Of a DNA stretch of 32,000 nt, positions 774-30,573 are shown piece after piece. Source of the DNA: Candidatus Pelagibacter sp. HTCC7211 (lineage in GTDB: Bacteria > Pseudomonadota > Alphaproteobacteria > Pelagibacterales > Pelagibacteraceae); contig NZ_DS995298.1 in the NCBI RefSeq assembly GCF_000155895.1, positions 720,001-752,000 of the forward strand. The letters run 5' to 3'. Below the pieces are notes generated by a model. It made no database searches and was not told the origin of the DNA. It saw nothing but the letters and a program-made list of their open reading frames with translations. Position 1 is the first letter of the stretch. Each line of letters opens with the position of its first letter. A program made the position numbers and the translations under genes.

Positions 774-850
774 GGCGGGGTAGCTCAGTTGGTTAGAGCG
801 CAGGACTCATAAGCCTGAGGTCAGTGGTTCGATCCCACTTCCCGCTACCA
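774..850 (+). tRNA. tRNA with CAT anticodon (Met; a lysidine-modified Ile2 cannot be excluded)
   Basis: The sequence is GGCGGGGTAGCTCAGTTGGTTAGAGCGCAGGACTCATAAGCCTGAGGTCAGTGGTTCGATCCCACTTCCCGCTACCA. It folds as a cloverleaf: acceptor stem GGCGGGG/TCCCGCT, D-arm GCTC..GAGC, anticodon loop CTCATAA, T-arm AGTGG-TTCGATC-CCACT, and an encoded CCA. It is a GC-rich island in AT-rich DNA. G1-U72 pairs and there is no GGG/CCC anticodon stem, which argues against an initiator tRNA. Confidence 0.9.
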
Positions 851-851
851 A

Positions 852-1379
852 TTAGTGTCCAGGAAAATTAATTAAATTTTCAACTTCATAGCTTTTTTTA
901 ATTAAATTTTCAGAACCGCCTAAATCAAATAAATTTATAACAAAAACAAAAGCCGCGACCTTTCCTCCTGATATTTCAATTAGTTTAGCTGCAGCTTCAG
1001 CTGTTCCACCAGTTGCTATTAAATCGTCAATAATCAAAACAGTATCTTTTTGATGAATAGAGTCTTTGTGAACCTCTATTGTTGCTGTGCCGTACTCTAA
1101 TTCGAAATCTATAGAATGAACATCCGCTGGTAATTTATTTTTTTTTCTTAACATTATGAATGGTTTTTTTAGTATATAGGAAACAGCTGACGCAAACACA
1201 AAACCTCTAGATTCTATCGCTGCAACTTTTGTAAAACTATATTTTTTTGATCTTTCTACAATTTGATTAATAGTTTCAGCAAAAGCATTTTCATCTTTAA
1301 TTAAAGTCGTGATATCTCTAAATAATATGCCTTTTTTTGGATAATCAGGAATTGAACGAATATAATTTTTTAAATTCAT
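852..1379 (-). CDS. apt: adenine phosphoribosyltransferase
   Basis: 175 aa. It carries the type I PRTase PRPP-binding loop VLIIDDLIATGGTAEAA and the N-terminal IRSIPDYPKKGILFRDIT motif typical of Apt. Confidence 0.93.
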   Translation of the reverse strand: MNLKNYIRSIPDYPKKGILFRDITTLIKDENAFAETINQIVERSKKYSFTKVAAIESRGFVFASAVSYILKKPFIMLRKKNKLPADVHSIDFELEYGTATIEVHKDSIHQKDTVLIIDDLIATGGTAEAAAKLIEISGGKVAAFVFVINLFDLGGSENLIKKSYEVENLINFPGH

Positions 1380-1420
1380 AATTGTAAAATATAAAAGTAT
1401 AAATAATTAAATTTTTAACT

Positions 1421-2293
1421 ATGACAACAAATAAATTAGCAATAATTGGTGGAAGTGGTTTATATGATATTGTAGAATTTAAAGAAAGAGAATTACTTGA
1501 TTTAAATACTCCATGGGGAAAACCATCTGATCAAATTTTAAAGACAATTTATAAGAATAAAGAAGTTTATTTTTTGCCTAGACATGGAAGAGGGCATTAT
1601 GTTTCACCAACAAATATAAATTTTAGAGCAAACATAGATGCACTTAAACAATTAGGTGTTACAGATATTGTTTCAGTATCTGCAGTTGGATCATTGCGAG
1701 AGGATTTACCACCAGGAAAATTTGTAATTGTAGATCAATTTATCGATAGAACATTTTCTAGAATAAAAACTTTCTTTGATGATGAAATTGTTGCTCATGT
1801 TTCTATGGCCCATCCAACTTCAAACGGATTAATGAATGCATGCGAAGAAGCTATAAAAAAATCCAATATAGATTATCAGAAAAATGGCACTTACGTTGTA
1901 ATGGAAGGTCCTCAATTTTCAACCTTGGCTGAGTCTAATTTATATAGGTCGTGGAAGGCAGATGTGATCGGAATGACTAATATGCCAGAGGCAAAATTAG
2001 CAAGAGAAGCAGAAATTAGATACGCATCAGTCTCTATGGTTACAGATTATGATTGCTGGCACCCTGATCACACAAATGTTGATGTTCAGCAAGTGATTAA
2101 AGTTTTATTGAGTAATGCAGAAAAGGCAAAAGATATGATTAAAAATTTAATAAATAATTTTGAAAATTATATTGATCCAAATGATCCAGCTATTAATTGT
2201 TTAGATGTAGCAATTATTACAGCACCAGAAAAAAGAACTCAGAAAACTATAGATAAACTTAAAACAGTTGCTGGAAGAGTTTTAAACAAATGA
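1421..2293 (+). CDS. mtnP: S-methyl-5'-thioadenosine phosphorylase
   Basis: 290 aa. It has the MTAP/PNP-family motifs AIIGGSGLYD, PWGKPSD, FLPRHGRGH and DVIGMTNMPEAKLAREAEI. It overlaps mtnA by 4 bp (ATGA). Confidence 0.9.
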   Translation: MTTNKLAIIGGSGLYDIVEFKERELLDLNTPWGKPSDQILKTIYKNKEVYFLPRHGRGHYVSPTNINFRANIDALKQLGVTDIVSVSAVGSLREDLPPGKFVIVDQFIDRTFSRIKTFFDDEIVAHVSMAHPTSNGLMNACEEAIKKSNIDYQKNGTYVVMEGPQFSTLAESNLYRSWKADVIGMTNMPEAKLAREAEIRYASVSMVTDYDCWHPDHTNVDVQQVIKVLLSNAEKAKDMIKNLINNFENYIDPNDPAINCLDVAIITAPEKRTQKTIDKLKTVAGRVLNK

Positions 2294-3360
2294 AAATTGC
2301 AGGTAAAGAATATAAAACAATTTGGTATGAAAAAAATGTTGTTAAAATAATTGACCAAACCAAACTTCCACATCACTTTAAAATTACAGAACTCAAAACA
2401 GTTAAAGACTCAATTAATGCAATAAAAGAAATGAAGGTAAGAGGGGCTCCTTTAATAGGTGCAACAGCAGCTTATGGAATAGCTTTGGCAATTCAAGAAA
2501 ATAATGACCTTGATTTTATAAAAAAAAGTGCAGAAGAATTAATTCAATCAAGACCTACAGCAATAAATTTAAAATGGGCAGTTGATCGTACGATGAAAAA
2601 TTTATCAGGAATTAATAGTGATCAACTTTTAAATATTACTTTAAATGAAGCTAAAGAAATTTGTGATGAAGATGAAAAATTTTGTGAAAATATAGGTATT
2701 AATGGATTAAAAATAGTTGAGGAAATTTATAACAAAAAAAAAGATACAGTTAATATTTTAACTCATTGTAATGCAGGTTGGCTTGCAACTATTAATTGGG
2801 GCACAGCAACGTCACCAATATATCATGCTCATAAAAAAGGAATTCCAGTTCATATATGGGTTGACGAAACAAGACCAAGGAATCAAGGTGCAAATTTAAC
2901 TTCATATGAATTAAACGAAGAAGAAATTCCAAATACCATAATTGCTGATAACACAGGTGGAATTTTAATGCAAAGAGGTGAGGTGGATATGTGTATTGTT
3001 GGAACTGATAGAACTTTATTTAATGGCGATGTTTGTAATAAAATAGGCACCTATTTAAAAGCATTAGCTGCTTATGATAACAATGTGCCTTTTTATGTTG
3101 CGCTACCAAGTTCAACAATTGATTGGGATATTAAGGATGCAAAAAATATCCCCATTGAAGAGAGAAATTCCGAAGAGTTATCCCACATAGAGGGCATTGA
3201 TGAAAATAATCAAATTAAAAAAGTTTTGATATATCCAAACAAAAGCAGAGCAATGAATTTAGCATTTGATGTAACACCTGCAAAATATGTAACTGGCTTA
3301 ATTACTGAGAGAGGAATTTGTGAAGCTTCTCGTGATGGTTTAAAAAAATTATTTAAATGA
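2290..3360 (+). CDS. mtnA: S-methyl-5-thioribose-1-phosphate isomerase
   Basis: 356 aa of the eIF-2B alpha/beta/delta-like family. Motifs: IIDQTKLPH, VRGAPLIGATAAYG, THCNAG, VDETRPRNQG, GTDR. It overlaps both neighbouring genes by 4 bp. Confidence 0.9.
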   Translation: MKIAGKEYKTIWYEKNVVKIIDQTKLPHHFKITELKTVKDSINAIKEMKVRGAPLIGATAAYGIALAIQENNDLDFIKKSAEELIQSRPTAINLKWAVDRTMKNLSGINSDQLLNITLNEAKEICDEDEKFCENIGINGLKIVEEIYNKKKDTVNILTHCNAGWLATINWGTATSPIYHAHKKGIPVHIWVDETRPRNQGANLTSYELNEEEIPNTIIADNTGGILMQRGEVDMCIVGTDRTLFNGDVCNKIGTYLKALAAYDNNVPFYVALPSSTIDWDIKDAKNIPIEERNSEELSHIEGIDENNQIKKVLIYPNKSRAMNLAFDVTPAKYVTGLITERGICEASRDGLKKLFK

Positions 3361-3989
3361 AAAAATTTAAATCTGAAATAATTAAATATTCAAAGATGCT
3401 GAATAAAAAAAAACTTTCAGCATTAAGATCTGGTAATATTTCTCTTAGATATAAGGAAGGTTTTTTAATAACTCCATCAGGAAAAAAATACTCATCTTTA
3501 AAAGATAAGGATATTGTTTTTGTTTCGCTGGATGGAATTTATGATAAAAAAAAAGGCACTCCATCGTCTGAATGGAAGTTTCATCAAGATATTTATATTA
3601 ACAAAAAAGAAGCAAAAGCAATTGTTCATGCACATTCAACAAATGCTACCGCGGTTTCTACTCACAAGAGAGGCATACCGCCTTTCCATTACATGGTAGC
3701 AATGGCAGGAGGCCACAATATCAAATGTGCAAAATATGCAACCTTTGGAACCAGAAAATTGTCAAATAATATTTTAAAAGCTTTAAAAGACCGTAAAGCT
3801 TGTTTAATTGCAAATCACGGACAGATTGCATTTGAAGAAAATTTATCAAAAGCTTTTGAGTTAGCGGAAGAGGTTGAAAATATATCGCTTCAGTATATAA
3901 CGAGCCTAAAATTGGGTATACCTAAAATTCTTTCAGTTAAAGAAATGAAAAAAGTTTTATCCAAGGCAAAGAATTATAAAAAAGGATAA
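3357..3989 (+). CDS. class II (zinc) aldolase/adducin-family protein, FucA-like; candidate 5-methylthioribulose-1-phosphate aldolase (Ald2-type) rather than the MtnB dehydratase
   Basis: 210 aa. From memory of E. coli FucA, it is near-collinear: SGNISLR, PSSEWKFH (Glu73 position), VHAHS (two zinc-binding His), PPFHYM (Tyr113 position), YATFGTRKLS, NHGQIA (third His). It is the third gene of an overlapping mtnP-mtnA-X operon. Confidence 0.8.
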   Translation: MKKFKSEIIKYSKMLNKKKLSALRSGNISLRYKEGFLITPSGKKYSSLKDKDIVFVSLDGIYDKKKGTPSSEWKFHQDIYINKKEAKAIVHAHSTNATAVSTHKRGIPPFHYMVAMAGGHNIKCAKYATFGTRKLSNNILKALKDRKACLIANHGQIAFEENLSKAFELAEEVENISLQYITSLKLGIPKILSVKEMKKVLSKAKNYKKG

Positions 3990-3993
3990 AAAA

Positions 3994-5034
3994 ATGACTA
4001 AAGTTGGAGAGCATATAACTCTTGACATTATTGGCACAACTAAAGAGTACGATCCTTCCGTATTTGAAAAAGTTATTCATGATATTGCAAAAGCTGCAGA
4101 TGTTACAATTCTAAATATTTCAAAATATAAATTTGAACCTCAAGGTTTTACAATTCTTGCTTTGTTAGCTGAAAGCCATATTAGTTTTCATACTTTTCCA
4201 GAAAAAGGAATTATTAGTTTTGATTTCTTTACATGTGGCAAGGTTAACCCATCAATTGCAATTGAAATTATAAAAAAAGAATTTGAACATACAAGAATAG
4301 TTAAAAAAGAATTTAATAGGGACACTAAATCTCTTTATCATGATATCTATAGTTCACCAGGATTACAAAAATCATATGTTGTTAATGATGTGCTTGAAGA
4401 TTTTAAGTCAAAAGTTGGTCAACACATTGAAATTTTAGATTTAGAGCAATTTGGAAAATCTTTATTTATTGATGGAGAAATTCAAGTAGCCGCCACTGAT
4501 GAACATTTGTATAGCTCAACTTTTGTAGGTGCAGGATTAGAATTAAATAAACAAAGTGAAAGAGCAGCTATTATTGGTGGTGGAGACGGTGGTGTCGCAA
4601 GAGAATGTATATCAAAAGATTTTAGTTTTATAGATTGGTATGAATTAGATCCTGAAGTTGTTGATGTTTGTAATAAACATCTTGGAGATATTGGAAAAAA
4701 AGCTACTGAAAAAAATTCTGTTAAATGTGTGTGGGGTGATGCTTTTGAAAGTATAAAGTCAGTGGAAGATGATACATACGATCATATTTTTGTAGATCTT
4801 AATGATGATCAGTTTTGCATTGATCTTGCAGCCAAAAATATGGACTCAATGATTAGAATTTTAAAACCTAAAGGGGTAATCACTGCTCAGGTTGGAAGCC
4901 AGGATAAAAAACCTAAACAAGTTGATAGTTGGTTGAATGTATTTAACCATCACTTTGGAAACACTAAATTATCAAGAGTTTATATCCCTAGTTTTGATTG
5001 CTCTTGGAATTTTTCATCATCAATAAATCATTAA
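3994..5034 (+). CDS. fusion protein: N-terminal pyruvoyl-dependent S-adenosylmethionine decarboxylase (SpeH/SpeD class 1B), C-terminal spermidine-synthase-like aminopropyltransferase
   Basis: 346 aa. Residues about 1-110 contain LLAESHISFHTFPEKGIISFDFFTCG, with the ES self-cleavage site and proenzyme core. Residues about 115-346 contain FGKSLFIDGEIQVAATDEHLY, IIGGGDGGVAREC and YELDPEVVDV, the aminopropyltransferase/dcSAM-binding motifs. The gene starts 4 bp after the preceding stop codon. Confidence 0.8.
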   Translation: MTKVGEHITLDIIGTTKEYDPSVFEKVIHDIAKAADVTILNISKYKFEPQGFTILALLAESHISFHTFPEKGIISFDFFTCGKVNPSIAIEIIKKEFEHTRIVKKEFNRDTKSLYHDIYSSPGLQKSYVVNDVLEDFKSKVGQHIEILDLEQFGKSLFIDGEIQVAATDEHLYSSTFVGAGLELNKQSERAAIIGGGDGGVARECISKDFSFIDWYELDPEVVDVCNKHLGDIGKKATEKNSVKCVWGDAFESIKSVEDDTYDHIFVDLNDDQFCIDLAAKNMDSMIRILKPKGVITAQVGSQDKKPKQVDSWLNVFNHHFGNTKLSRVYIPSFDCSWNFSSSINH

Positions 5035-20485: not shown

Positions 20486-21490
20486 TTATTTTGGAATCCA
20501 ACTACTCCATTTATCAGGATTAGCGTCTTTCCATTCTTTAACTACTTCTTTAAGATCTCTATTTTTTTGTTTAACTTCAACTAGCATTACAGCTTGATCT
20601 GCATTGTCAAACTTCATCTTTGTGAAGAATTCTGCAGCTTTAGCATTTTCTGGTTTAGCGAAAGTTGCTGGGTTACCATAGTTGAACGTATAGTCTTTTG
20701 CCCAACCTGTTGCTGGCCATGCAGCAGTTCCACAATCTTTCCAGTTATTAGCTTCAGTAAAACTATCACAAGTTTTGTGCTCAGGAAGACCTACACCAAC
20801 CATATCGTAAGCACCAAAGAACCAATGCGGTTCCCATAGGTATAATAAGAAAGGCTCTTTTCTTTCATATGCAGCAGAGGCTTCAGCAAGCGCAGCAGCC
20901 TCAGTTCCTAACTCATCAGCTTGGAAATCAATTCCTAAAAGATCAAGTCTTTTTTGATCATGACAGTTCCAACCTGCAACAGGACAAGCAATTAATCTTC
21001 CTCTGTTACCACTTTCAATAGTTGCAAATTTGTCTTTATGTTTATTTAAATCTTTCCATGATTTAATTCCATATTTATCTGCAGCATATTTAGGAATAAA
21101 ATAATCTGAAAGTCCAATTATACCAGATGTACCTAAAAGTTTTACACTTCCATCACCTTCATAATTGAACATAGTCTTACCATCATACACTAGAGGTCCT
21201 TTCATCATGACAGTATCTGCTTCAGCATAACTCGGCCAACTTTCACACGCAAAGTCAATTTCACCTGCAGCTATTGCTTCCCACAATCCTGTTCCTGATG
21301 GAAATACTACCCTTTTTACTTTGTATCCCAACTCTTCTTCCAACATACTGACAGCAACCTGACAAGTAATTTCTCCACCTGTCCAGTCTGCTACAGCTGC
21401 TGTTAATCTTTTAGCATTTGCTTGTGAAAAAGTTCCAAGTAAAAGTACAAAAGATAATACAAAAGCTGAAAAAGTTTTTGTTAATTTCAT
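20486..21490 (-). CDS. ProX/OpuAC-type periplasmic binding protein for quaternary ammonium / tertiary sulfonium compounds
   Basis: 334 aa with a signal peptide (LLLGTFSQANA/K). From memory, it is collinear with E. coli ProX, including the three aromatic-cage Trp contexts (ESWPSY, AGWNCHD with its Cys pair, LYLWEPHWF). A strong AGGAG site lies 5 nt upstream of the ATG. Confidence 0.88.
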   Translation of the reverse strand: MKLTKTFSAFVLSFVLLLGTFSQANAKRLTAAVADWTGGEITCQVAVSMLEEELGYKVKRVVFPSGTGLWEAIAAGEIDFACESWPSYAEADTVMMKGPLVYDGKTMFNYEGDGSVKLLGTSGIIGLSDYFIPKYAADKYGIKSWKDLNKHKDKFATIESGNRGRLIACPVAGWNCHDQKRLDLLGIDFQADELGTEAAALAEASAAYERKEPFLLYLWEPHWFFGAYDMVGVGLPEHKTCDSFTEANNWKDCGTAAWPATGWAKDYTFNYGNPATFAKPENAKAAEFFTKMKFDNADQAVMLVEVKQKNRDLKEVVKEWKDANPDKWSSWIPK

Positions 21491-21538
21491 TGTTTCTCCT
21501 CTTAATTAATTAATTAAAAAAAACATACTAATTCAAAA

Positions 21539-21548
21539 ATTATACCCA
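21539..21548 (-). promoter_or_regulatory. candidate -10 element (TGGGTATAAT) of a dedicated promoter for the binding-protein gene
   Basis: A perfect TATAAT (complement of 21539-21544), preceded by TGGG, lies 48 nt upstream of the ATG. It sits inside a 156-bp spacer that separates this gene from the upstream operon genes. The -35 region is weak. Confidence 0.3.
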
Positions 21549-21646
21549 TGTAAACTGTATTAATAATTATTTAAGCAAGATTTTATGCGAGTATAGGTGT
21601 GGTTTTTTGTCAATGACCCAGAATAGGTTAATTTTTTTTAATATCT

Positions 21647-22825
21647 CTATTTTGTTTGTTTAGGAATACTTCTGTCTATGCCTTTAACAATTTTTTTTTC
21701 AGGATCAAAAAAGGGGAGATTTACAACTTTAGATTTATGATTTTCTCCATTAGGCAATTTTAAAATTAATTCTTTTCCTGGCCAATCTTTTGGTTCATAA
21801 AACCTTACGTAACCTATACCTGTGTTAAGTGTTAAAGAGTGAACACCAGCAGTTATATGACCTACAATTTTATCTTCATCGATTACTTTACTACCAGACA
21901 CTGGCGTTTCAGTTTTACAAGTTAAACCAAACAAACAAGTGCCTTTGTCTTTATTTAATAATGCATCACGACCTATAAAATCCTCTTTATCCATATTTAC
22001 GCAAAATCCTAAACCAGCTTCGAAAGGATTTATTGTAGTATCAATATCAGTTAAATTACCAAATATCCCAGCTTCAATTCTTCTTATAGTCATTGCTCTT
22101 GTTGCTGAAAGTTCCATTCCAAAAGGTTTTCCACAATTCATAAGATGGTCCCATAAAGCTAGATGATCAGTTTTAAATCCATCAGAATAGATTTCAAACC
22201 CAAGCTCGTTAGTAAAACCTGATCTTGAAACATATAAGTTTTGTCCTCCAAGATCAAAGAATCCAGATCTATAGTACTGCATATTTTCATTTATCTTTCC
22301 ATTTGAGGCTGCTTTCATAATATCTATTGAAGCTGGTCCTTGTATTTGTATAACCCTTGATTTTGGATCTAAAATTTTTACATCAAATCCTTTGCTGTGA
22401 GCTAATAACCAATCTTCAAAAGGCCCATCTGCTTGTACATACCAAAATTTATTTTCACTAAATTTAAAAATTACTCCATCCATAAATATTCCACCTTGAG
22501 GAGTACATGCTAATGAATAATAGCCTCGACCTTCTTTAATTGTTGAAACTTTTCTAGTCATAACTTTTTCTAAAAATGCAGCCACATCAGGTCCAGATAT
22601 TTCAATTGGTTTTTCAGGAACATCAAACATTGCTGCCTTTTGTCTTAACAGCCAATATTTTTGAACCGGGTCTTCTCCTAAGGAAATTGCAAAATATCTT
22701 CCAGCATAAACACCTCTAACCATTTCTGGAGAATTAGTTCTTTCTATATAAGGGGATTCTTCAAATCTTCTTGCGCTAATCTTTACAGTTTTTTTTAAGT
22801 CAGATAATTCTTGAAAGTTTCCCAT
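21647..22825 (-). CDS. GcvT/DmdA-family aminomethyltransferase (tetrahydrofolate-dependent methyl/aminomethyl transferase fold)
   Basis: 392 aa. GcvT-fold landmarks are AAMFDV..EISGPDVAAFLEKVMTRKV, TPQGGIFMDGVIF, QIQGPAS, SRSGFTNELGFEIY and IEAGI. An AAGGA site lies 10 bp after the upstream stop. The substrate cannot be assigned from sequence alone. Confidence 0.85.
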   Translation of the reverse strand: MGNFQELSDLKKTVKISARRFEESPYIERTNSPEMVRGVYAGRYFAISLGEDPVQKYWLLRQKAAMFDVPEKPIEISGPDVAAFLEKVMTRKVSTIKEGRGYYSLACTPQGGIFMDGVIFKFSENKFWYVQADGPFEDWLLAHSKGFDVKILDPKSRVIQIQGPASIDIMKAASNGKINENMQYYRSGFFDLGGQNLYVSRSGFTNELGFEIYSDGFKTDHLALWDHLMNCGKPFGMELSATRAMTIRRIEAGIFGNLTDIDTTINPFEAGLGFCVNMDKEDFIGRDALLNKDKGTCLFGLTCKTETPVSGSKVIDEDKIVGHITAGVHSLTLNTGIGYVRFYEPKDWPGKELILKLPNGENHKSKVVNLPFFDPEKKIVKGIDRSIPKQTK

Positions 22826-22835
22826 TAAATTCCTT

Positions 22836-25166
22836 TTAATTAATATTTGTTTTATTTCTTAAAATAGTTGGTGGATCGTATGCAGTAATAGATGGAGGAT
22901 TATCAATAAACTTTTCCATCTCAATAAGACATGAATGTGCAATTGGGCCTTGTCCAAGTTTAGAGGTTCCTTTATCCAGTGTTAAAACATTAGGATTACC
23001 GTGTTTACACATAGAATTAGGTTCATTAGCTTTTTCTGGATCATACCAGGCTCCAGTGCTAATTTGTACAACACCTTCCATTACTTTTTTATTAACTTTA
23101 ACTCCTGCCAAGCAAGCTCCTCTATTATTAAAGAGCTTGACAACATCACCATTTTTTAATCCACGTTTCTTTGCATCATGTGGATTAATTTCTATGGGCT
23201 CTCGGTCATTAATTTTGAAGGATTTACTGTATTTACCATGATCCATTTGGCTGTGTAATTTATTCTTTGGTTGATTTGAAATTAAATGAAGTGGAAAGGT
23301 TTTATTTTTTTTGCCAAGCCACTCACAAGGTTCTAACCAAACAGGATGGCCAGGGCAATCATTATAATTAAAGTCAGCAACAGTTTTGGAATATATTTCA
23401 ATTTTACCGCTAGGAGTGTTTAAAGGATTCTTTAAAGGATCTTCAATGAATTCTTTTAGCATGAGTGTAGGTTCTGAAGGATCTTTAATCTTAAACCATT
23501 TATTCTCTCTAAATTTCTCATAGCTTGGAATTTCAATATTAGCTGCTTCAGCTCGTTTAGAAGTCTCGGAATATATCCATTTTTGCCATTCTTCTTGGGT
23601 TCTACCTTCTGTAAATTCGTCTTTAACACCCATTCTTTTAGCTATATTGGAAAAAATTTCATAATCATCTTTTGCTTGTTTATAAGGTTCAATTATTTTT
23701 GACATAGAAACAACATAAGGATCTCTTGGTGTCATCATAATATCACTTCTTTCAAGAGGTGTTGTGCAAGGTAAAACAATATCTGATCTTTTAGCCAATG
23801 TATTCCAACACCATTCATTTGATATAATAGTATCTGGTTTTTCCCAAGCTTTAATCAAACGATTTAGATCTTGATGATGATGAAAAGGATTTCCACCAGC
23901 CCAATAAACTACTTTTGTATCTGGATATTCATAACTTTTTCCATCAAAATCAAATCTTTCTCCTGGGTGAAGTAAAAGATCACTAATCCGAGCAACAGGA
24001 ATAAAATTTTCTATTTCATTTTTTGTTTGTGGAAAGGCTGCTCCTGGTAAAATAGTAAATTGACCGCCTATAAAATTTGTAGCACTGTATCCAAATCCAA
24101 ATCCACCACCTGGTAATCCAATTTGTCCAATCATAGATGCCAACATTATCGCCATCCAAAACGGTTGCTCTCCATGATCTTGTCTTGTCAAAGACCAACT
24201 TAGAGAAATCATACTTCTCTTAGAGGATAACTTGTGAGCTAATTCTTTTATTTTTTCTGGAGATATATTGCATATTTCAGCAGCCCAGCTTGCATCTTTT
24301 TTAATTCCATCAGTTTCACCTAAAAGATAAGGTAAAAATTTTTCAAACCCTTCTGTATATTTTTTTAAAAACTCTTTATCACTTAAACCTTCTACGTGAA
24401 GTGTGTGTGCTATTCCCAGCATAAGTGCAGTGTCAGTATTTGGTCGTGCAGCTATCCAATCACATTTAACGTCATCAATAAAATCAGATTTTAATGGGCT
24501 TACATTAATAAATTCAATTCCTGATTTTGAAGCCTCTATTAAATTTTCTTGCTGATAATGATTTCCTGTTCCTCCTTGAGAAATTTGACCATTTTTTATT
24601 GGAATTCCTCCAAAGCATAAAAATACTTTAGTATTATCTTTAATTGAACTCCAACTCGTACATGTATCTAGATAAGCTCTATAACTTCCAAGTATATGGG
24701 GAACCATTGCTTCAGCTGCAGCAAAGCTGTAAGTAAATTTTGAACTAGTATAACCACCTATACAATTTAAAAATCTATGAAGTTGACTTTGAGCATGATG
24801 AAATCTTCCAGCGCTTGCCCACCCATATGATCCTCCATAAATAGACGGGTTTCCGAATTTCTCTTTAACTCGATTAAGTTCATCGGCGACTAGCTGTTCA
24901 GCCTTTTCCCAACTAACTTCTACAAATGGCTCACTTCCACGTAATTTATTATTTGTACCTGGTCCACCTTCCAGCCAACTCTTTCTAATCATTGGTGAGT
25001 CTATTCGAGTAGGACCATCAAGTACATCTAAAATTCCTTGCGCAATAGGTGAAGGGTCTTTGTCATGTTCCCACCCTAAAAGTTCCTGAATTTTTCCATC
25101 TTTGACTTTTGCTCTGTATGTACCCCAATGATTACTAGTTAAAGGAAGACCTTTATCTTTGGTCAT
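22836..25166 (-). CDS. cytoplasmic molybdopterin (bis-MGD) oxidoreductase of the BisC/TorZ S-/N-oxide reductase clade
   Basis: From memory, it is collinear with E. coli BisC: LTSNHWGTY, GSYGWASAGRFHHAQSQLHRFLNCIGGYT, YSFAAAEAMVPHILG (aligns with DYSTGAAQAIMP, which I recall carries the Mo-ligand Ser), HPVWLEP, SQMDH. I moved the start to MTKDKG (ATG at 25166-25164), which forms an ATGA overlap with the permease stop. The track start at 25214 would overlap the permease gene by 52 bp. Confidence 0.88.
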   Translation of the reverse strand: MTKDKGLPLTSNHWGTYRAKVKDGKIQELLGWEHDKDPSPIAQGILDVLDGPTRIDSPMIRKSWLEGGPGTNNKLRGSEPFVEVSWEKAEQLVADELNRVKEKFGNPSIYGGSYGWASAGRFHHAQSQLHRFLNCIGGYTSSKFTYSFAAAEAMVPHILGSYRAYLDTCTSWSSIKDNTKVFLCFGGIPIKNGQISQGGTGNHYQQENLIEASKSGIEFINVSPLKSDFIDDVKCDWIAARPNTDTALMLGIAHTLHVEGLSDKEFLKKYTEGFEKFLPYLLGETDGIKKDASWAAEICNISPEKIKELAHKLSSKRSMISLSWSLTRQDHGEQPFWMAIMLASMIGQIGLPGGGFGFGYSATNFIGGQFTILPGAAFPQTKNEIENFIPVARISDLLLHPGERFDFDGKSYEYPDTKVVYWAGGNPFHHHQDLNRLIKAWEKPDTIISNEWCWNTLAKRSDIVLPCTTPLERSDIMMTPRDPYVVSMSKIIEPYKQAKDDYEIFSNIAKRMGVKDEFTEGRTQEEWQKWIYSETSKRAEAANIEIPSYEKFRENKWFKIKDPSEPTLMLKEFIEDPLKNPLNTPSGKIEIYSKTVADFNYNDCPGHPVWLEPCEWLGKKNKTFPLHLISNQPKNKLHSQMDHGKYSKSFKINDREPIEINPHDAKKRGLKNGDVVKLFNNRGACLAGVKVNKKVMEGVVQISTGAWYDPEKANEPNSMCKHGNPNVLTLDKGTSKLGQGPIAHSCLIEMEKFIDNPPSITAYDPPTILRNKTNIN

Positions 25167-27292
25167 ACTTGTTTTTTTTCTAAACCTAAAGCTATTCTTT
25201 GTTTTTTTGTCCAAGCAAGACTTATTCTATCAATAATAATAGCCATCAGAACAATCCCAATTCCTGCAGCCAATCCTCTTCCGGTATCAGATCTTGCTAA
25301 TCCGTTAAACACTTCAAGACCTAAACCTTTACCCCCAATTAAAGGTGTAACAATTTGCATTGCAAACGCCATAATTACAGTTTGATTGAAACCAATTACT
25401 AGACTTGGAACAGCCAATGGAAATTTAACTTTGTTTAATGTTTGAATTAAAGTTCCTCCAAATGATCTTGATACTTCAGAAAAACTTCCAGACACTTGAG
25501 TAAGACCCAAAGATGTTAATCTAATAATTGGAGGTATCGCATAAATTACAGTTGCTAATACAGCAGAAACAATACCGCCCCCAAAAAACATCAAAACAGG
25601 AATTAAATAACAAAAATACGGAAGTGTTTGCATCGCATCTAATATTACATTTTGGATATCTCTAAATCTTTTATTATATGATGCTATTATTCCTAATGGT
25701 ACACCAAGTGCAAAACATAAAGCTACTGATACTAAAACAGATGATAAAGTAACCATTGATTGTGTCCAAATTCCACAAGCAGCAATAAAAAATAACAACA
25801 ACACTGTAATGATTGCAAATCTAAATCCTACAGTAAAGTATCCAATTGCTGCGAATATACTCATAGTGTACCACCAAGGTATATGAGTTAAAAATGTATC
25901 GAGAGGATTTAAAAGGTTCAGATAAACAAATGCTCTCAAACCTTTTGTAAACCCTATAAATGAAGGATTAACTGTAAGAGACTTAACAGTTTCTGCTATT
26001 GGTTGTCTTATAGAAAGTTTCCATTCTGATGGAAATGATCCAATGTTTACAACAAAAGCGTCAATTAAAACGATAATAAAAAAAACTATAAATGATGGAA
26101 TTAAATAATATCTTTTACTTATTAACTCTCCTATTTCATTACCCAAGTCTTTGTTAAAAACAGAAATTAAATATTTAAATAAGTCACCTATTAAAGTGGT
26201 TACTTTTTCACAAATAAATTTAATTATTAAATGAATTAAAGTTAAAGGTCTTTCTAGGATTCTAGCTATTTGATATTTTTCCCAAGTTTGAGGTAGTAAA
26301 TAAAATTTTTGAACATCTGATGGAAGAGTTTCTTCTTGTTTGCTAAACGACATACTAAACCTATCAAATAGAATAGCCATAAAAAGAATACACAATCCAC
26401 CTTCCATTGCCCAACCTACATCAAGATTTCGAATTGCTAACCATACCTGGCCACCTATACCTTCCGCACCAATAAAACACGCTAATACTACTAGTGCCAA
26501 AGCCATCATAATTACCTGGTTAATACCCATCATGATGCTTGGTAATGAAAGTGGAATTTTAATTTTGTAAAGAAGCTGAAGTTTGCTTGAACCAAATGAA
26601 GTAGCAGACTCAATTGTTTCTTTGGAAACTTGTCTTATTCCAGAATTAGTTAACCTTATTACAGGAGGCATTGCATAAATCATTGTTGCCAATATCGCAG
26701 GTGCTCCTCCAATTCCAAAAAAGAATAAAGCTGGAAAAAGATAAACAAATGCTGGCATGACTTGCATTGTATCCAAAACTGGTTTCATGAAATTATCAAA
26801 CCGATTACTTTGAGAACATAAAATTCCGAGAATAACTCCAAAAAACACACATAAGAAAACTGATAATCCCATTAATGCCAAGGTTTGCATTGACTCATCC
26901 CACATTCCTACTGCACCCCAAAAATAAACCACAAATATAGAATACAAGCCTAATTTTAAACCTCCTGCAATTAAGCAAGGCAAAAAGAGAATTGCAGCAA
27001 TCAACAACCATGGAGAGTCTATAAGAAAATCCTCTAAGACATAATATCCTTCTTTAATATAGCTAGCGATTATTTTTGTTATCCATCTATAATTTTTTTT
27101 TAAGTAATCCTCGCCATCATTAACCCATGCAGTAAAAGTAAATTCATCTGTTATTTGCTTTGGAAATTTTGAAGGACCGTCGTTTTGGAAGGAAAGCCAT
27201 AAGGCACCCAGAAACACAGCTAACACAAGAATATATTTAACTAAACTCTTTGACGAGTCTGATTTTTCTAAAACATGACCTTCAGCAGACAT
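25163..27292 (-). CDS. tandem-fused double ProW/OpuAB-type ABC permease
   Basis: 709 aa. It has two homologous transmembrane modules, each with its own EAA loop: SFGSSKLQLLYKIKIPLSLPSIMMGINQ and SFGGTLIQTLNKVKFPLAVPSLVIGFNQ. Both also carry MPPVIRLT / IPPIIRLT motifs. The modules are joined by a linker of about 100 aa. Confidence 0.88.
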   Translation of the reverse strand: MSAEGHVLEKSDSSKSLVKYILVLAVFLGALWLSFQNDGPSKFPKQITDEFTFTAWVNDGEDYLKKNYRWITKIIASYIKEGYYVLEDFLIDSPWLLIAAILFLPCLIAGGLKLGLYSIFVVYFWGAVGMWDESMQTLALMGLSVFLCVFFGVILGILCSQSNRFDNFMKPVLDTMQVMPAFVYLFPALFFFGIGGAPAILATMIYAMPPVIRLTNSGIRQVSKETIESATSFGSSKLQLLYKIKIPLSLPSIMMGINQVIMMALALVVLACFIGAEGIGGQVWLAIRNLDVGWAMEGGLCILFMAILFDRFSMSFSKQEETLPSDVQKFYLLPQTWEKYQIARILERPLTLIHLIIKFICEKVTTLIGDLFKYLISVFNKDLGNEIGELISKRYYLIPSFIVFFIIVLIDAFVVNIGSFPSEWKLSIRQPIAETVKSLTVNPSFIGFTKGLRAFVYLNLLNPLDTFLTHIPWWYTMSIFAAIGYFTVGFRFAIITVLLLFFIAACGIWTQSMVTLSSVLVSVALCFALGVPLGIIASYNKRFRDIQNVILDAMQTLPYFCYLIPVLMFFGGGIVSAVLATVIYAIPPIIRLTSLGLTQVSGSFSEVSRSFGGTLIQTLNKVKFPLAVPSLVIGFNQTVIMAFAMQIVTPLIGGKGLGLEVFNGLARSDTGRGLAAGIGIVLMAIIIDRISLAWTKKQRIALGLEKKQV

Positions 27293-29382: not shown

Positions 29383-30573
29383 ATGAGTAATTTTAAACTA
29401 AATGAATCTGATATCTTGTCTAATCAAGATTGGACATTCCCAACTAACATTGCATATGGTCCTGGTCGTTTAAAAGAAATAGGCACAATGTGTAATAATT
29501 TAGATATCAAGAATCCACTAATAGTAACAGATAAAGGTAGCCCAAAATTACCATTTGTAACAAATTTACAAAGATATTTAGATAACTCAAATGTAAAGTC
29601 AGATATATTTTTTGATATATCGCCTAATCCTCGAGAGGATGAAATATCAGTGGGTTGTAAAAAATATAACGATGGAAAACATGATTCAATAATTGCTATC
29701 GGTGGTGGAAGTGCCATGGATGGAGGTAAATTAATATGCCTCACAGCAAATAATGATGTGCCACTAAGAGATTTTGAATTTGAACTTACACCTCCAATAA
29801 TTAGTAAAGATAACCCTTTTCCAAAAATTATAACTATTCCTACAACAGCAGGCACAGGAGCTGAAACAGAGATAACAGCAATGGTTACCTACTTAAAAGA
29901 AGGTATGAAATTTTGTATGTGGCATCCAGATGTTAGACCGTCTTTAGCATTAATTGACCCCGAGTTAACAATAGGATTACCATCTAATTTAACAGCATGG
30001 ACAGGAGCTGATGCTTTAATACATGCTATAGAGGGATATTGTGTGCCTGGATTTAATCCAATGTGTGATGGGGCAGCACTGGAAGGACTTTCTTTAATTT
30101 CAAAATCATTAATTAAAGCAGTTGAAGAGCCTGAGAATATATTAGCAAGAGGTGGTATGCATGTTGGATCTTGTTTAGCAGGAATATCATTTTTGAAAGG
30201 TTTAGGAAATGTTCATTCTATTTCCCATATGGTAGGAGCAGAATATAATACCCATCATGGACTAACTAACGCAATAGTTTTACCAGTTGTCATGAAATAT
30301 AATTTGCCAGGAATGGAAGAAAAAGTTCAAAGAATGTCAGAAGCAATGCAATACAAAGATCATTCTGTAAACGCATTTATAAAAAATTTAGAGAACCTTT
30401 TAGATAGAATTAAAATTCCAAATAGTTTGAGTGAAATTAATGTTCCAGAGGATTGTGCTGAAAGAATTGCTGAAAAAGCAATGAAAGATCAAGCGTATGC
30501 AACCAATCCTAAAGTAGCTTCATTAGCTGAAATGAAAGAAATGGTTTTGCAAAGTATTAAAAAAGCTCGATAA
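29383..30573 (+). CDS. iron-containing (group III) alcohol dehydrogenase family protein
   Basis: 396 aa. It has the GGGSAMDGGK nucleotide-binding motif, PTTAGTGAE, and the metal-binding His cluster HSISHMVGAEYNTHHG. Confidence 0.88.
   Translation: MSNFKLNESDILSNQDWTFPTNIAYGPGRLKEIGTMCNNLDIKNPLIVTDKGSPKLPFVTNLQRYLDNSNVKSDIFFDISPNPREDEISVGCKKYNDGKHDSIIAIGGGSAMDGGKLICLTANNDVPLRDFEFELTPPIISKDNPFPKIITIPTTAGTGAETEITAMVTYLKEGMKFCMWHPDVRPSLALIDPELTIGLPSNLTAWTGADALIHAIEGYCVPGFNPMCDGAALEGLSLISKSLIKAVEEPENILARGGMHVGSCLAGISFLKGLGNVHSISHMVGAEYNTHHGLTNAIVLPVVMKYNLPGMEEKVQRMSEAMQYKDHSVNAFIKNLENLLDRIKIPNSLSEINVPEDCAERIAEKAMKDQAYATNPKVASLAEMKEMVLQSIKKAR

What the first reader, a model, noticed from the sequence alone, without database searches (positions are those of the whole stretch)
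3357..3989. The third gene of the MTA operon looks like a FucA-type aldolase, not the MtnB dehydratase: DHAP-shunt rather than canonical methionine salvage
Automatic annotation would probably call this gene mtnB, because it follows mtnP and mtnA. The protein is close to collinear with E. coli L-fuculose-1-phosphate aldolase as I recall it. It keeps the catalytic Glu context (PSSEWKFH), the three zinc-binding His (VHAHS, NHG) and the FHYM Tyr. It shows little of the B. subtilis MtnB pattern. No mtnC, mtnD or mtnW-like genes follow.

The trio of MTA phosphorylase, MTR-1-P isomerase and class II aldolase is exactly the architecture of the DHAP shunt described in Rhodospirillum and in pathogenic E. 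coli. That shunt cleaves methylthioribulose-1-P to DHAP plus 2-(methylthio)acetaldehyde. In an organism that depends on exogenous reduced sulfur, the fate of that volatile organosulfur product matters: excretion as methylthioethanol, or recycling through methanethiol.
Basis: partly seen in the sequence, partly recalled or inferred. Interest (0 to 1): 0.65.

Follow-up and report, generated by a model that had tools for sequence, protein, structure and literature searches.

The report
SAR11 MTA-disposal aldolase (DHAP shunt)
The gene is a real FucA-type metal-dependent aldolase (not the MtnB dehydratase), sitting between MTA-recycling genes and a spermidine-synthesis gene in a SAR11-like marine bacterium, so this abundant ocean microbe most likely splits the sulfur by-product of polyamine synthesis into DHAP and a small organosulfur aldehyde by an already known pathway.

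Summary
ORF 3357-3989 (+) encodes a 210-aa class II aldolase. It is collinear with E. coli FucA (46% identity) and keeps every catalytic residue. Its predicted fold is almost identical to FucA (TM 0.93-0.95). MtnB profiles match weakly and only in the N-terminal half.

The gene is translationally coupled (ATGA overlaps) to mtnP and mtnA. A fused AdoMet-decarboxylase/spermidine-synthase gene follows it, and apt lies divergently upstream.

In 80 SAR11-like metagenome loci, the aldolase is followed by the fusion gene in 53/53 cases. It is preceded by mtnA in 45/55.

Sequence alone cannot separate "Ald2" from "FucA". The experimentally verified E. coli Ald2 is 58% identical to E. coli FucA and only 41% identical to this protein. 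The functional call therefore rests on context:
- The protein fails NCBI's FucA equivalog cut-off.
- There are no fucose genes nearby.
- Four independent related clades are also mtnA-linked, one as an MtnA-aldolase fusion.

Best reading (about 0.75): an MtnP-type DHAP shunt that cleaves methylthioribulose-1-P, and probably 5-deoxyribulose-1-P. That makes it a new member of a known kind.

I could not test genome-wide absence of mtnB/C/D or the fate of the sulfur aldehyde. I found no paper describing this pathway in SAR11.

The parts
852..1379 (-). apt, adenine phosphoribosyltransferase. It would salvage the adenine released by MtnP. It is transcribed divergently from mtnP.
   Evidence: NCBIfam NF002634 213 bits (cut-off 170) and TIGR01090 198.7 bits (cut-off 185.85). 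Present upstream of mtnP in SAR11-like loci wherever the flank allows.
1380..1420 (.). 41-bp AT-rich divergent intergenic region between apt and mtnP. It presumably holds both promoters.
   Evidence: Sequence read. Promoter-like hexamers overlap it on both strands, but not above shuffled expectation. No Rfam riboswitch.
1421..2293 (+). mtnP, 5'-methylthioadenosine phosphorylase (and probably 5'-deoxyadenosine phosphorylase)
   Evidence: NF006492 437.9 bits (cut-off 437) and TIGR01694 308.9 bits (cut-off 274.85). Its stop codon overlaps the mtnA start (ATGA).
2290..3360 (+). mtnA, 5-methylthioribose-1-phosphate isomerase
   Evidence: NF004326 449.7 bits (cut-off 271) and TIGR00512 419.3 bits (cut-off 279). 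Its stop codon overlaps the aldolase start (ATGA).
3357..3989 (+). FucA-like class II (metal-dependent, DHAP-forming) aldolase. Proposed methylthioribulose-1-P / 5-deoxyribulose-1-P aldolase (Ald2/DrdA function).
   Evidence: E72, H91, H93, H154, Y112, S70/S71, N27 and Y207 are invariant or nearly so in 173 SAR11-like sequences.
3994..5034 (+). Fused SpeH-type AdoMet decarboxylase (aa ~4-109) and spermidine synthase (aa ~114-340). This is the MTA-producing enzyme. It starts 4 nt after the aldolase stop codon.
   Evidence: TIGR03330 97.3 bits (cut-off 75.65); Pfam PF02675, PF17284 and PF01564. Immediately downstream of the aldolase in 53/53 SAR11-like loci. The SAR11 SpeE fusion is cited as experimentally characterised (Green et al. 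2011, via PMC8437039).

Best explanation
The five genes form a self-contained module for making spermidine and clearing its by-product.

Proposed route:
1. The fused SpeH-SpeE enzyme decarboxylates SAM and transfers the aminopropyl group to putrescine. This releases 5'-methylthioadenosine (MTA).
2. MtnP phosphorolyses MTA to adenine and methylthioribose-1-P.
3. Apt recaptures the adenine as AMP.
4. MtnA isomerises methylthioribose-1-P to methylthioribulose-1-P.
5. The aldolase cleaves methylthioribulose-1-P into DHAP and 2-(methylthio)acetaldehyde.

The aldolase would work like E. coli FucA. A divalent metal is held by H91/H93/H154, and E72 and Y112 act as acid/base.

This is the MtnP variant of the DHAP shunt. 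By analogy with characterised Ald2 and DrdA enzymes, the same three enzymes probably also clear 5'-deoxyadenosine from radical-SAM enzymes, giving DHAP and acetaldehyde.

What is shown and what is inferred:
- Shown here: gene identities by curated profiles, catalytic-residue conservation, predicted fold, operon-like coupling, and conservation of the gene neighbourhood.
- Inferred: substrate, products, metal, and everything downstream of the aldehyde.
For: 1. FucA-type, not MtnB-type.
- Profiles.
- PDB sequence match.
- Fold: TM 0.93-0.95 to FucA and 0.90-0.92 to DrdA (6BTD/6BTG), against 0.72-0.74 to MtnB-like 2IRP.

2. Not a FucA equivalog.
- The window protein scores 192 bits on TIGR01086, whose cut-off is 400.25.
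- True FucA scores 445. Verified E. coli Ald2 scores 318 and also fails.

3. Translational coupling.
- ATGA overlaps join mtnP/mtnA and mtnA/aldolase.
- A 4-nt spacer precedes speH-speE.

4. Conservation in 80 SAR11-like loci (aldolase 61-88% identical, GC 0.26-0.35).
- speH-speE lies downstream in 53/53.
- mtnA lies upstream in 45/55.

5. Catalytic residues are invariant in 173 sequences.

6. Related aldolases at 42-51% identity are mtnA-linked in four separate clades.
- A marine GC-0.265 lineage carries petABC-mtnP-mtnA-ald.
- P0126.
- A Burkholderiales-like clade, in 3/3 contexts, each with a 4-bp overlap.
- A 566-aa MtnA::aldolase fusion.

7. The architecture matches published DHAP-shunt clusters (PMC13474568; PMC6079011; PMC10986504).

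8. There are no fucose genes in the window. SAR11 genomes are reported to lack annotated fucose/fuculose utilisation genes (PMC6018831).
Against: - There is no biochemical evidence for this protein.
- By similarity it is nearer to genuine E. coli FucA (46%, 184 bits) than to verified E. coli Ald2 (41%, 154 bits) or DrdA (35%).
- The neighbour-joining tree is star-like. The SAR11 clade is isolated, and its closest high-GC relatives (the P0124 group, 48%) sit among sugar kinases and FucU/RbsD. Orthology to a verified Ald2 is therefore not demonstrated.
- In 10 of 55 SAR11-like loci, the aldolase-speHE pair has no adjacent mtnP/mtnA.
- Genome-wide absence of mtnB/C/D was not tested.
- A preprint reports 'methionine salvage' as complete in Pelagibacter.
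Confidence: 0.75

Rival explanations
1. The trio mainly disposes of 5'-deoxyadenosine, the radical-SAM by-product, as in Bacillus thuringiensis DrdK/I/A. The aldolase's main substrate would then be 5-deoxyribulose-1-P (giving DHAP and acetaldehyde), with MTA handling secondary. This is a variant of the best explanation rather than an exclusive alternative.
For: Characterised DHAP-shunt enzymes use MTA- and 5dAdo-derived substrates with similar efficiency (PMC13474568). Beaudoin et al. interpret phosphorylase/kinase-isomerase-aldolase trios as 5-deoxyribose disposal. The predicted fold matches DrdA at TM 0.90-0.92. The low-GC marine relative has the trio without speHE.
Against: In SAR11-like loci the aldolase's most constant neighbour is the MTA-producing speH-speE fusion (53/53). 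No radical-SAM gene is consistently linked. Identity to DrdA is only 35%.
Confidence: 0.12
2. It is a genuine sugar-phosphate aldolase acting on L-fuculose-1-P or another ketose-1-P, as public annotation says. Under this reading its position next to mtnA is incidental.
For: The highest similarity and the top profiles are FucA. The closest Rhodospirillales-like relatives lie with FGGY/PfkB kinases and FucU/RbsD.
Against: It fails all curated FucA cut-offs (209.5 < 264; 192 < 400.25). There is no fucI, fucK, fucP or any sugar kinase in the window or in the 80 related loci. It has start/stop overlap with mtnA. SAR11 is reported to lack fucose/fuculose utilisation genes. The FucA loop N23-Q-G-T26-A27 is replaced by an invariant S-A/P-L-R-S, and F206 is mostly Ala.
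Confidence: 0.06
3. It is the MtnB dehydratase of the canonical methionine salvage pathway, or substitutes for it.
For: It occupies the gene-order slot after mtnP-mtnA. It has weak N-terminal similarity to MtnB models (65 bits). A preprint asserts that 'methionine salvage' is complete in Pelagibacter.
Against: MtnB equivalog scores are 65/137, 63/226 and 42/281 (score/cut-off) and cover only the N-terminal half. The fold is far closer to FucA than to MtnB-like 2IRP. No mtnC, mtnD, mtnW or mtnX is present in the window.
Confidence: 0.02
4. The aldolase-like protein has a different role tied directly to the SpeH-SpeE fusion and not needing MtnP/MtnA. That role could be a different substrate or a structural partnership.
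For: The aldolase-speHE adjacency (53/53) is tighter than the aldolase-mtnA adjacency (45/55). Ten loci carry the pair in unrelated contexts.
Against: The full DHAP-aldolase catalytic set is strictly conserved. Split clusters are common for pathways. mtnP/mtnA may simply lie elsewhere in those genomes. No known chemistry links a FucA-type aldolase to aminopropyl transfer.
Confidence: 0.05

Closest known systems
MtnP-type DHAP shunt of Rhodospirillum rubrum (Rru_A0361-0360-0359) and Rhodopseudomonas palustris (MtnP, MtnA, Ald2)
   Same: Same three enzyme types: MTA phosphorylase, MTR-1-P isomerase and a FucA-like class II aldolase. In R. rubrum the three genes are also consecutive. Both are alphaproteobacterial. 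The predicted products are the same: adenine, DHAP and 2-(methylthio)acetaldehyde.
   Different: Here the cluster also carries the MTA-producing speH-speE fusion and apt. The host is an aerobic, streamlined marine oligotroph without the downstream nitrogenase-like MAR system that those species use anaerobically (my own knowledge, not tested). I could not obtain the R. rubrum or R. palustris Ald2 sequences, so percent identity is unknown.
E. coli ExPEC DHAP shunt (MtnK-MtnA-Ald2; ATCC 25922 type, locus L001)
   Same: A FucA-like aldolase directly downstream of mtnA, with identical catalytic residues. MtnA is 56% identical to the window's MtnA.
   Different: It uses Pfs plus the MtnK kinase instead of MtnP. 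The aldolases are only 41% identical. E. coli Ald2 is a recent sister of E. coli FucA (58%). In E. coli the pathway serves carbon acquisition from exogenous nucleosides (PMC10986504).
Bacillus thuringiensis DrdK-DrdI-DrdA 5-deoxyribose disposal cluster, and its 'drdP' phosphorylase variants (Beaudoin et al. 2018; PDB 6BTD/6BTG)
   Same: A trio of kinase-or-phosphorylase, isomerase and FucA-like aldolase. The fold matches at TM 0.90-0.92 and rmsd 1.4 A.
   Different: 35% identity. DrdA is Mn-dependent and prefers acetaldehyde. There is no link to polyamine genes.
E. coli L-fuculose-1-phosphate aldolase FucA (PDB 1FUA)
   Same: The closest solved structure and the closest sequence: 46% identity, TM 0.93-0.95. 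All metal, phosphate and acid/base residues are shared.
   Different: The window protein fails the FucA equivalog cut-off. It has no fucose-pathway neighbours. The active-site loop 23-27 is replaced (SALRS for NQGTA), and F206 of the aldehyde pocket is Ala.
MtnB methylthioribulose-1-P dehydratase (TIGR03328)
   Same: Same superfamily (PF00596), the same substrate proposed, and the same position after mtnA in many salvage operons.
   Different: Only a weak N-terminal profile match. Different chemistry (dehydration). No partner mtnC/mtnD genes nearby.

Membership tests
Class II aldolase/adducin superfamily (PF00596) | Significant match to the Pfam domain above the gathering score | tested here: met
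   165.9 bits against a gathering score of 22.2, covering aa 7-177
Class II aldolase/adducin superfamily (PF00596) | Characteristic alpha/beta fold | tested here: met
   AlphaFold pLDDT 94.8. Foldseek top 19 hits are all FucA or DrdA, with TM >= 0.90.
FucA-like DHAP-dependent aldolase branch | Three His metal ligands (FucA H92, H94, H155) | tested here: met
   H91, H93 and H154. They are present in 173, 172 and 173 of 173 SAR11-like sequences.
FucA-like DHAP-dependent aldolase branch | Catalytic Glu73 and Tyr113, plus the C-terminal Tyr209 | tested here: met
   E72 (173/173), Y112 (172/173) and Y207 (173/173)
FucA-like DHAP-dependent aldolase branch | Phosphate-binding residues (N29, T43/G44, S71, S72) | tested here: met
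   N27, S41/G42, S70 and S71 are conserved
L-fuculose-1-phosphate aldolase proper (FucA, EC 4.1.2.17) | Score at or above the curated equivalog/subfamily cut-offs | tested here: not met
   TIGR01086: 192.1 < 400.25. NF005984: 209.5 < 264. NF005302: 190.4 < 264. True FucA scores 444.7 and 455.5.
L-fuculose-1-phosphate aldolase proper (FucA, EC 4.1.2.17) | Genomic association with fucose isomerase, kinase or permease | tested here: not met
   None in the 32-kb window. In the 80 related loci only the window's own neighbour proteins were searched for, so absence of fuc genes there was not systematically tested. The rest of the genome was not searchable.
L-fuculose-1-phosphate aldolase proper (FucA, EC 4.1.2.17) | Cleaves L-fuculose-1-P to DHAP and L-lactaldehyde | not testable with these tools
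   An enzyme assay is needed
MtnB methylthioribulose-1-P dehydratase | Score at or above the curated equivalog cut-offs, with a full-length match | tested here: not met
   TIGR03328: 65.4 < 137.05 (aa 15-105 only). NF006672: 62.9 < 226. NF005244: 42.2 < 281.
MtnB methylthioribulose-1-P dehydratase | Co-occurrence with mtnC (or mtnW/mtnX) and mtnD | tested here: inconclusive
   Absent from the window. Genome-wide presence could not be searched. A preprint's claim of a complete 'methionine salvage' module is undefined.
DHAP shunt aldolase (Ald2/DrdA function, EC 4.1.2.62) | FucA-like class II aldolase encoded next to MTR-1-P isomerase (mtnA/drdI) | tested here: met
   4-bp overlap with mtnA in the window. 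mtnA is adjacent or nearby in 45/55 SAR11-like loci.
DHAP shunt aldolase (Ald2/DrdA function, EC 4.1.2.62) | A cluster-encoded entry enzyme: MTA/5dAdo phosphorylase (MtnP) or MTR kinase (MtnK) | tested here: met
   mtnP at 1421-2293 passes curated cut-offs
DHAP shunt aldolase (Ald2/DrdA function, EC 4.1.2.62) | Orthology or clustering with experimentally verified Ald2 or DrdA | tested here: inconclusive
   41% identity to E. coli Ald2 and 35% to DrdA. The neighbour-joining tree is star-like, and verified E. coli Ald2 groups with E. coli FucA. The function appears polyphyletic. The R. rubrum and R. palustris sequences were not obtainable.
DHAP shunt aldolase (Ald2/DrdA function, EC 4.1.2.62) | Cleaves MTRu-1-P or 5-deoxyribulose-1-P to DHAP plus an aldehyde | not testable with these tools
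   An enzyme assay or labelled-MTA feeding is needed

The most novel reading that the evidence does not exclude
SAR11 cannot reduce sulfate, yet it would route the methylthio group of every MTA molecule into 2-(methylthio)acetaldehyde. One possibility is that the cell recovers that sulfur by a still-unknown aerobic route, via methylthioethanol or methylthioacetate to methanethiol to methionine. The other is that it continuously leaks a volatile organosulfur compound. In the second case the ocean's most abundant heterotroph would be a previously unrecognised, DMSP-independent source of methylthioethanol or methanethiol. The strict aldolase-speHE linkage (53/53) and the SAR11-specific active-site loop (an invariant Arg replacing FucA T26; F206 to Ala) could reflect specialisation for the methylthio substrate.
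Probability: 0.2. Interest if true: 0.7.

Novelty: new member of a known kind. Interest (0 to 1): 0.45.

Why it matters
If the assignment is right, SAR11 does not run the oxygen-dependent canonical methionine salvage pathway on MTA. It would harvest adenine and a C3 unit (DHAP), which is useful for a cell with unusual carbon requirements. The sulfur would be expelled or re-routed as a two-carbon thioether.

- The assignment fixes a misleading public annotation ('L-fuculose-phosphate aldolase') that is replicated in thousands of marine metagenome proteins.
- It adds a sulfur sink to SAR11 sulfur budgets.
- It yields cheap, direct experiments in existing cultures: MTA as a sulfur source, methylthioethanol or methanethiol release, and a recombinant enzyme assay.

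The pathway itself is not new. It is reported in about 10% of sequenced bacteria.

Tried and rejected
1. R. rubrum Ald2. I tried to fetch it by scanning genome contigs with a published 19-nt primer core for Rru_A0360.

2. Key papers. The two most relevant distribution papers (North 2020 PMC7237333; North 2017 PMC5715764) and Green 2011 (PMC3196669) are not held. I cannot exclude that SAR11 appears in their surveys.

3. Phylogenetic placement. A neighbour-joining tree of 108 sequences was star-like and not diagnostic. Verified E. coli Ald2 groups with E. coli FucA, so an 'Ald2 clade' does not exist as such.

4. A residue signature shared by mtnA-linked aldolases. None was found. The SALRS loop is specific to SAR11, apart from a partial echo (Arg at the FucA T26 position, motif LSPGRSGN) in relatives such as P0133/P0134 whose gene context was uninformative or not examined.

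5. Genome-wide mtnB/C/D search. This is not possible with the tools. The supplement of the 'Pelagibacter, resolved' preprint lists only relaxed-threshold rescues and was uninformative.

6. Organism name. The cluster look-up returned no names. SAR11 identity is inferred from about 30% GC, a 1,456,888-bp host contig, and ubiquity in Tara and marine metagenomes. From memory, the contig size equals that of strain HTCC7211.

7. Regulation. No riboswitch is present, and promoter or terminator signals do not exceed shuffled expectation.

8. The amino-acid-type ABC transporter downstream of speHE as part of the module. Rejected, because it is present in only 15/27 loci.
Full report
**1. Observation**

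The ORF at 3357-3989 (+) is real and encodes 210 aa.

Pfam places the protein in Aldolase_II (165.9 bits).

Among NCBIfam models the best hits are full-length FucA-type:
- NF005984: 209.5 bits.
- TIGR01086: 192.1 bits.
- NF005302: 190.4 bits.

The three MtnB equivalogs reach only 65.4, 62.9 and 42.2 bits. They align only to about residues 5-105.

Against solved structures:
- E. coli FucA is best (176 bits, aa 13-207).
- B. thuringiensis 6BTD is weaker (128.5 bits). This is the 5-deoxyribulose-1-P aldolase DrdA of PMC6079011.
- The MtnB-like aq_1979 (2IRP) matches only aa 6-106.

BLASTP gives 46% identity to E. coli FucA over 206 residues with two gap positions.

An AlphaFold model built on 29 homologues has pLDDT 94.8. 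Its superpositions:

| Target | TM | rmsd |
|---|---|---|
| E. coli FucA | 0.93-0.95 | 1.0-1.2 A |
| DrdA | 0.90-0.92 | 1.4 A |
| 2IRP | 0.72-0.74 | 3.1 A |

The claim 'FucA-type, not MtnB-type' is therefore confirmed by sequence, profile and predicted fold.

**2. Surroundings**

The neighbours are as follows.
- mtnP (1421-2293) passes curated cut-offs.
- mtnA (2290-3360) passes curated cut-offs.
- apt (852-1379) lies on the minus strand, 41 bp from mtnP.
- Directly after the aldolase, 3994-5034 encodes a fusion of a SpeH-type AdoMet decarboxylase and a spermidine synthase.

The mtnP/mtnA and mtnA/aldolase junctions are ATGA start/stop overlaps. The fusion gene starts 4 nt after the aldolase stop codon.

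The fusion enzyme produces MTA. The five genes therefore cover spermidine synthesis, MTA phosphorolysis, adenine recapture, isomerisation, and whatever the aldolase does.

Noell et al. cite Green et al. 2011 for biochemical characterisation of this SAR11 fusion enzyme (PMC8437039).

The rest of the window holds transporters, glycosyltransferases, a GcvT-family protein, a molybdopterin oxidoreductase, an Fe-alcohol dehydrogenase and similar genes. It holds no fucose genes and no mtnB, mtnC, mtnD or mtnW. Rfam finds only a tRNA-Met.

**3. Organism**

- GC content is about 0.30.
- The identical protein lies on a 1,456,888-bp contig.
- Thousands of 85-99% identical proteins occur in marine metagenomes, including Tara.

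This fits SAR11 (Pelagibacter). From memory, the contig length equals that of strain HTCC7211. No tool returned an organism name.

**4. Conservation across SAR11-like diversity**

A metagenome scan returned 80 loci with aldolase identity of 61-88% and GC of 0.26-0.35.
- The speH-speE fusion follows the aldolase in 53 of 53 loci that have enough downstream sequence.
- mtnA lies upstream in 45 of 55 loci with at least 600 bp upstream. mtnP and apt usually lie beyond it.
- Ten loci carry the aldolase-speHE pair in other contexts, without mtnP or mtnA nearby. One example follows a TrpB-like gene.
- Unrelated genes are sometimes inserted between mtnP, mtnA and the aldolase.

In 173 SAR11-like aldolase sequences the catalytic set is invariant or nearly so: E72, H91, H93, H154, Y112, S70, S71, N27 and Y207.

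The FucA active-site loop N23-Q-G-T26-A27 is replaced by S-(A/P)-L-R-S, with Leu, Arg and Ser invariant. FucA F206 is Ala in 146 of 173 sequences.

**5. Can sequence tell Ald2 from FucA? No.**

I recovered the experimentally verified E. coli Ald2 through the deletion-primer arm published in PMC10986504. It lies in an mtnK-mtnA-ald2 cluster. PGAP calls it 'L-fuculose-phosphate aldolase'.

The identities are:
- E. coli Ald2 and E. coli FucA: 58%.
- E. coli Ald2 and the window protein: 41%.
- The window protein and FucA: 46%.

NCBI's strict FucA equivalog does separate them:

| Protein | TIGR01086 score (cut-off 400.25) |
|---|---|
| True FucA | 444.7 |
| Verified E. coli Ald2 | 317.8 |
| Window protein | 192.1 |

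A search of 1.84 billion cluster representatives found no non-SAR11 relative above about 51% identity.

A neighbour-joining tree is star-like. The SAR11 clade is isolated, and E. coli FucA and Ald2 pair together elsewhere.

The DHAP-shunt aldolase function therefore looks polyphyletic within the FucA-like branch. The assignment has to rest on context.

**6. Context of the nearest relatives**

mtnA-linked:
- The P0125 cluster (51% identical, marine, GC 0.265) sits in petABC-mtnP-mtnA-aldolase.
- P0126 (47%) follows mtnA.
- The Burkholderiales-like P0138 clade follows mtnA with a 4-bp overlap in 3 of 3 contexts.
- P0167 is a 566-aa MtnA::aldolase fusion protein.

Sugar context:
- The Rhodospirillales-like P0124 group (48%) lies with FucU/RbsD, FGGY and PfkB kinases and Dak.

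Uninformative:
- Two further contexts.

At this level of divergence, linkage to mtnA is common and arises in independent lineages. It is not universal.

**7. Literature**

The trio of kinase-or-phosphorylase, isomerase and FucA-like aldolase is a described cluster type found in six phyla (PMC6079011).

The DHAP shunt has two characterised variants, MtnP and MtnN+MtnK. It is said to occur in about 10% of sequenced bacteria. Its role depends on the organism: carbon acquisition, detoxification, or sulfur salvage (PMC13474568; PMC10986504; PMC5893883).

Full-text searches combining SAR11 or Pelagibacter with methylthioribulose, methylthioadenosine+aldolase, acireductone, methylthioribose or fuculose found no description of this pathway in SAR11.

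Henson et al. note that SAR11 genomes lack annotated fucose and fuculose utilisation genes (PMC6018831).

One preprint states that a KEGG 'methionine salvage' module is >=98% complete in 135 Pelagibacter genomes. It does not define the module. This is unresolved, and it bears on the 'instead of canonical salvage' part of the claim.

**8. Mechanism and rivals**

The best-supported reading is the MtnP-type DHAP shunt (confidence about 0.75).
1. SpeH-SpeE makes MTA.
2. MtnP releases adenine, which Apt recaptures, and MTR-1-P.
3. MtnA makes MTRu-1-P.
4. The aldolase cleaves it, FucA-style, to DHAP and 2-(methylthio)acetaldehyde.

5'-Deoxyadenosine is probably processed in parallel to DHAP and acetaldehyde.

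The rivals are:
- A mainly 5dAdo-disposal role (compatible with the above).
- A genuine sugar aldolase.
- MtnB.
- An unknown function tied to SpeHE.

The last is prompted by the 53/53 versus 45/55 asymmetry.

Nothing downstream of the aldehyde can be inferred. An Fe-ADH lies 25 kb away in the window, but it is not linked.

**9. Verdict**

- It is a new member of a known kind, not a new mechanism.
- Interest is moderate (0.45). The organism is ecologically dominant and a reduced-sulfur auxotroph. The public annotation is misleading. The hypothesis is directly testable in culture.

Noticed in passing
window 3994-5034: A single gene fuses a SpeH-type AdoMet decarboxylase to a spermidine synthase. 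The autoprocessing 'AES' site context LLAESHISFHTFPE is present. This gene is the aldolase's most constant neighbour (53/53 SAR11-like loci), more constant than mtnA.
   Followed up: partly
L064-L075, L079 (for example L066) compared with window 852-5034: In a set of SAR11-like loci the flanking genes are 82-91% identical to the window, but the aldolase is only 61-66% identical and carries a small insertion after the SGN motif. This suggests two divergent aldolase alleles, or replacement by recombination within closely related genomes.
   Followed up: partly
L018, L020, L045, L047, L053, L054, L061, L084, L087, L092: Ten of 55 loci have the aldolase-speHE pair in unrelated neighbourhoods with no mtnP or mtnA nearby. 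Some follow a TrpB-like gene. It is unknown whether those genomes keep mtnP/mtnA elsewhere.
   Followed up: partly
L016, L022, L032, L037, L049, L074, L076, L085 (gaps between mtnP, mtnA and the aldolase): The cluster is an insertion hot spot. Unrelated genes of 0.5-1.6 kb are wedged between the pathway genes in some lineages. They include a TPR-like secreted protein, a 306-312-aa protein of unknown function that recurs in three loci, a flavodoxin-like protein and a TrpB-like protein.
   Followed up: no
L097/L098 (GC 0.265, marine): A second very low-GC marine lineage carries mtnP-mtnA-aldolase directly after the cytochrome bc1 genes petABC and before ychF-pth-rplY-prs, without speHE. Its aldolase is only 50% identical to the window's. 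Its MtnP and MtnA are 59% and 56% identical. The organism was not identified.
   Followed up: partly
P0167 (566 aa), P0249: Natural fusion proteins of MtnA (IF-2B domain) and a FucA-like aldolase exist in a high-GC organism. This is a Rosetta-stone link between the two activities. P0249 may be a truncated or miscalled version.
   Followed up: partly
L001 (E. coli NZ_CP023844.1 4979782-4980423): RefSeq/PGAP names the experimentally verified E. coli Ald2 'L-fuculose-phosphate aldolase'. It passes the NF005984 'subfamily' cut-off (361 bits) but not the fucA equivalog. The 3' end of ald2 is present in 1233 of 5426 complete E. coli genomes.
   Followed up: partly
window 774-850: A tRNA-Met (CAT) gene lies immediately next to the 3' end of apt, on the opposite strand.
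   Followed up: yes
window 29383-30573: An iron-containing alcohol dehydrogenase (396 aa) lies about 25 kb downstream. An ADH is the enzyme type presumed to reduce 2-(methylthio)acetaldehyde in other DHAP-shunt organisms. Nothing links this one to the cluster.
   Followed up: no
window 20486-27292: A glycine-betaine-type substrate-binding protein (OpuAC), a GcvT-family aminomethyltransferase (392 aa, the family that includes DMSP demethylase), a 792-aa molybdopterin oxidoreductase and a 709-aa double-permease ABC protein lie together on the minus strand. This may be a methylated-amine or osmolyte catabolic island.
   Followed up: no
bioRxiv 10.64898/2026.04.03.716430: A 2026 preprint scores 'methionine salvage' as >=98% complete in all 135 closed Pelagibacter genomes without listing the KOs used. 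If the module is KEGG M00034, that would conflict with a DHAP-shunt-only reading. Alternatively it may reflect the FucA-like aldolase or other genes being counted.
   Followed up: partly
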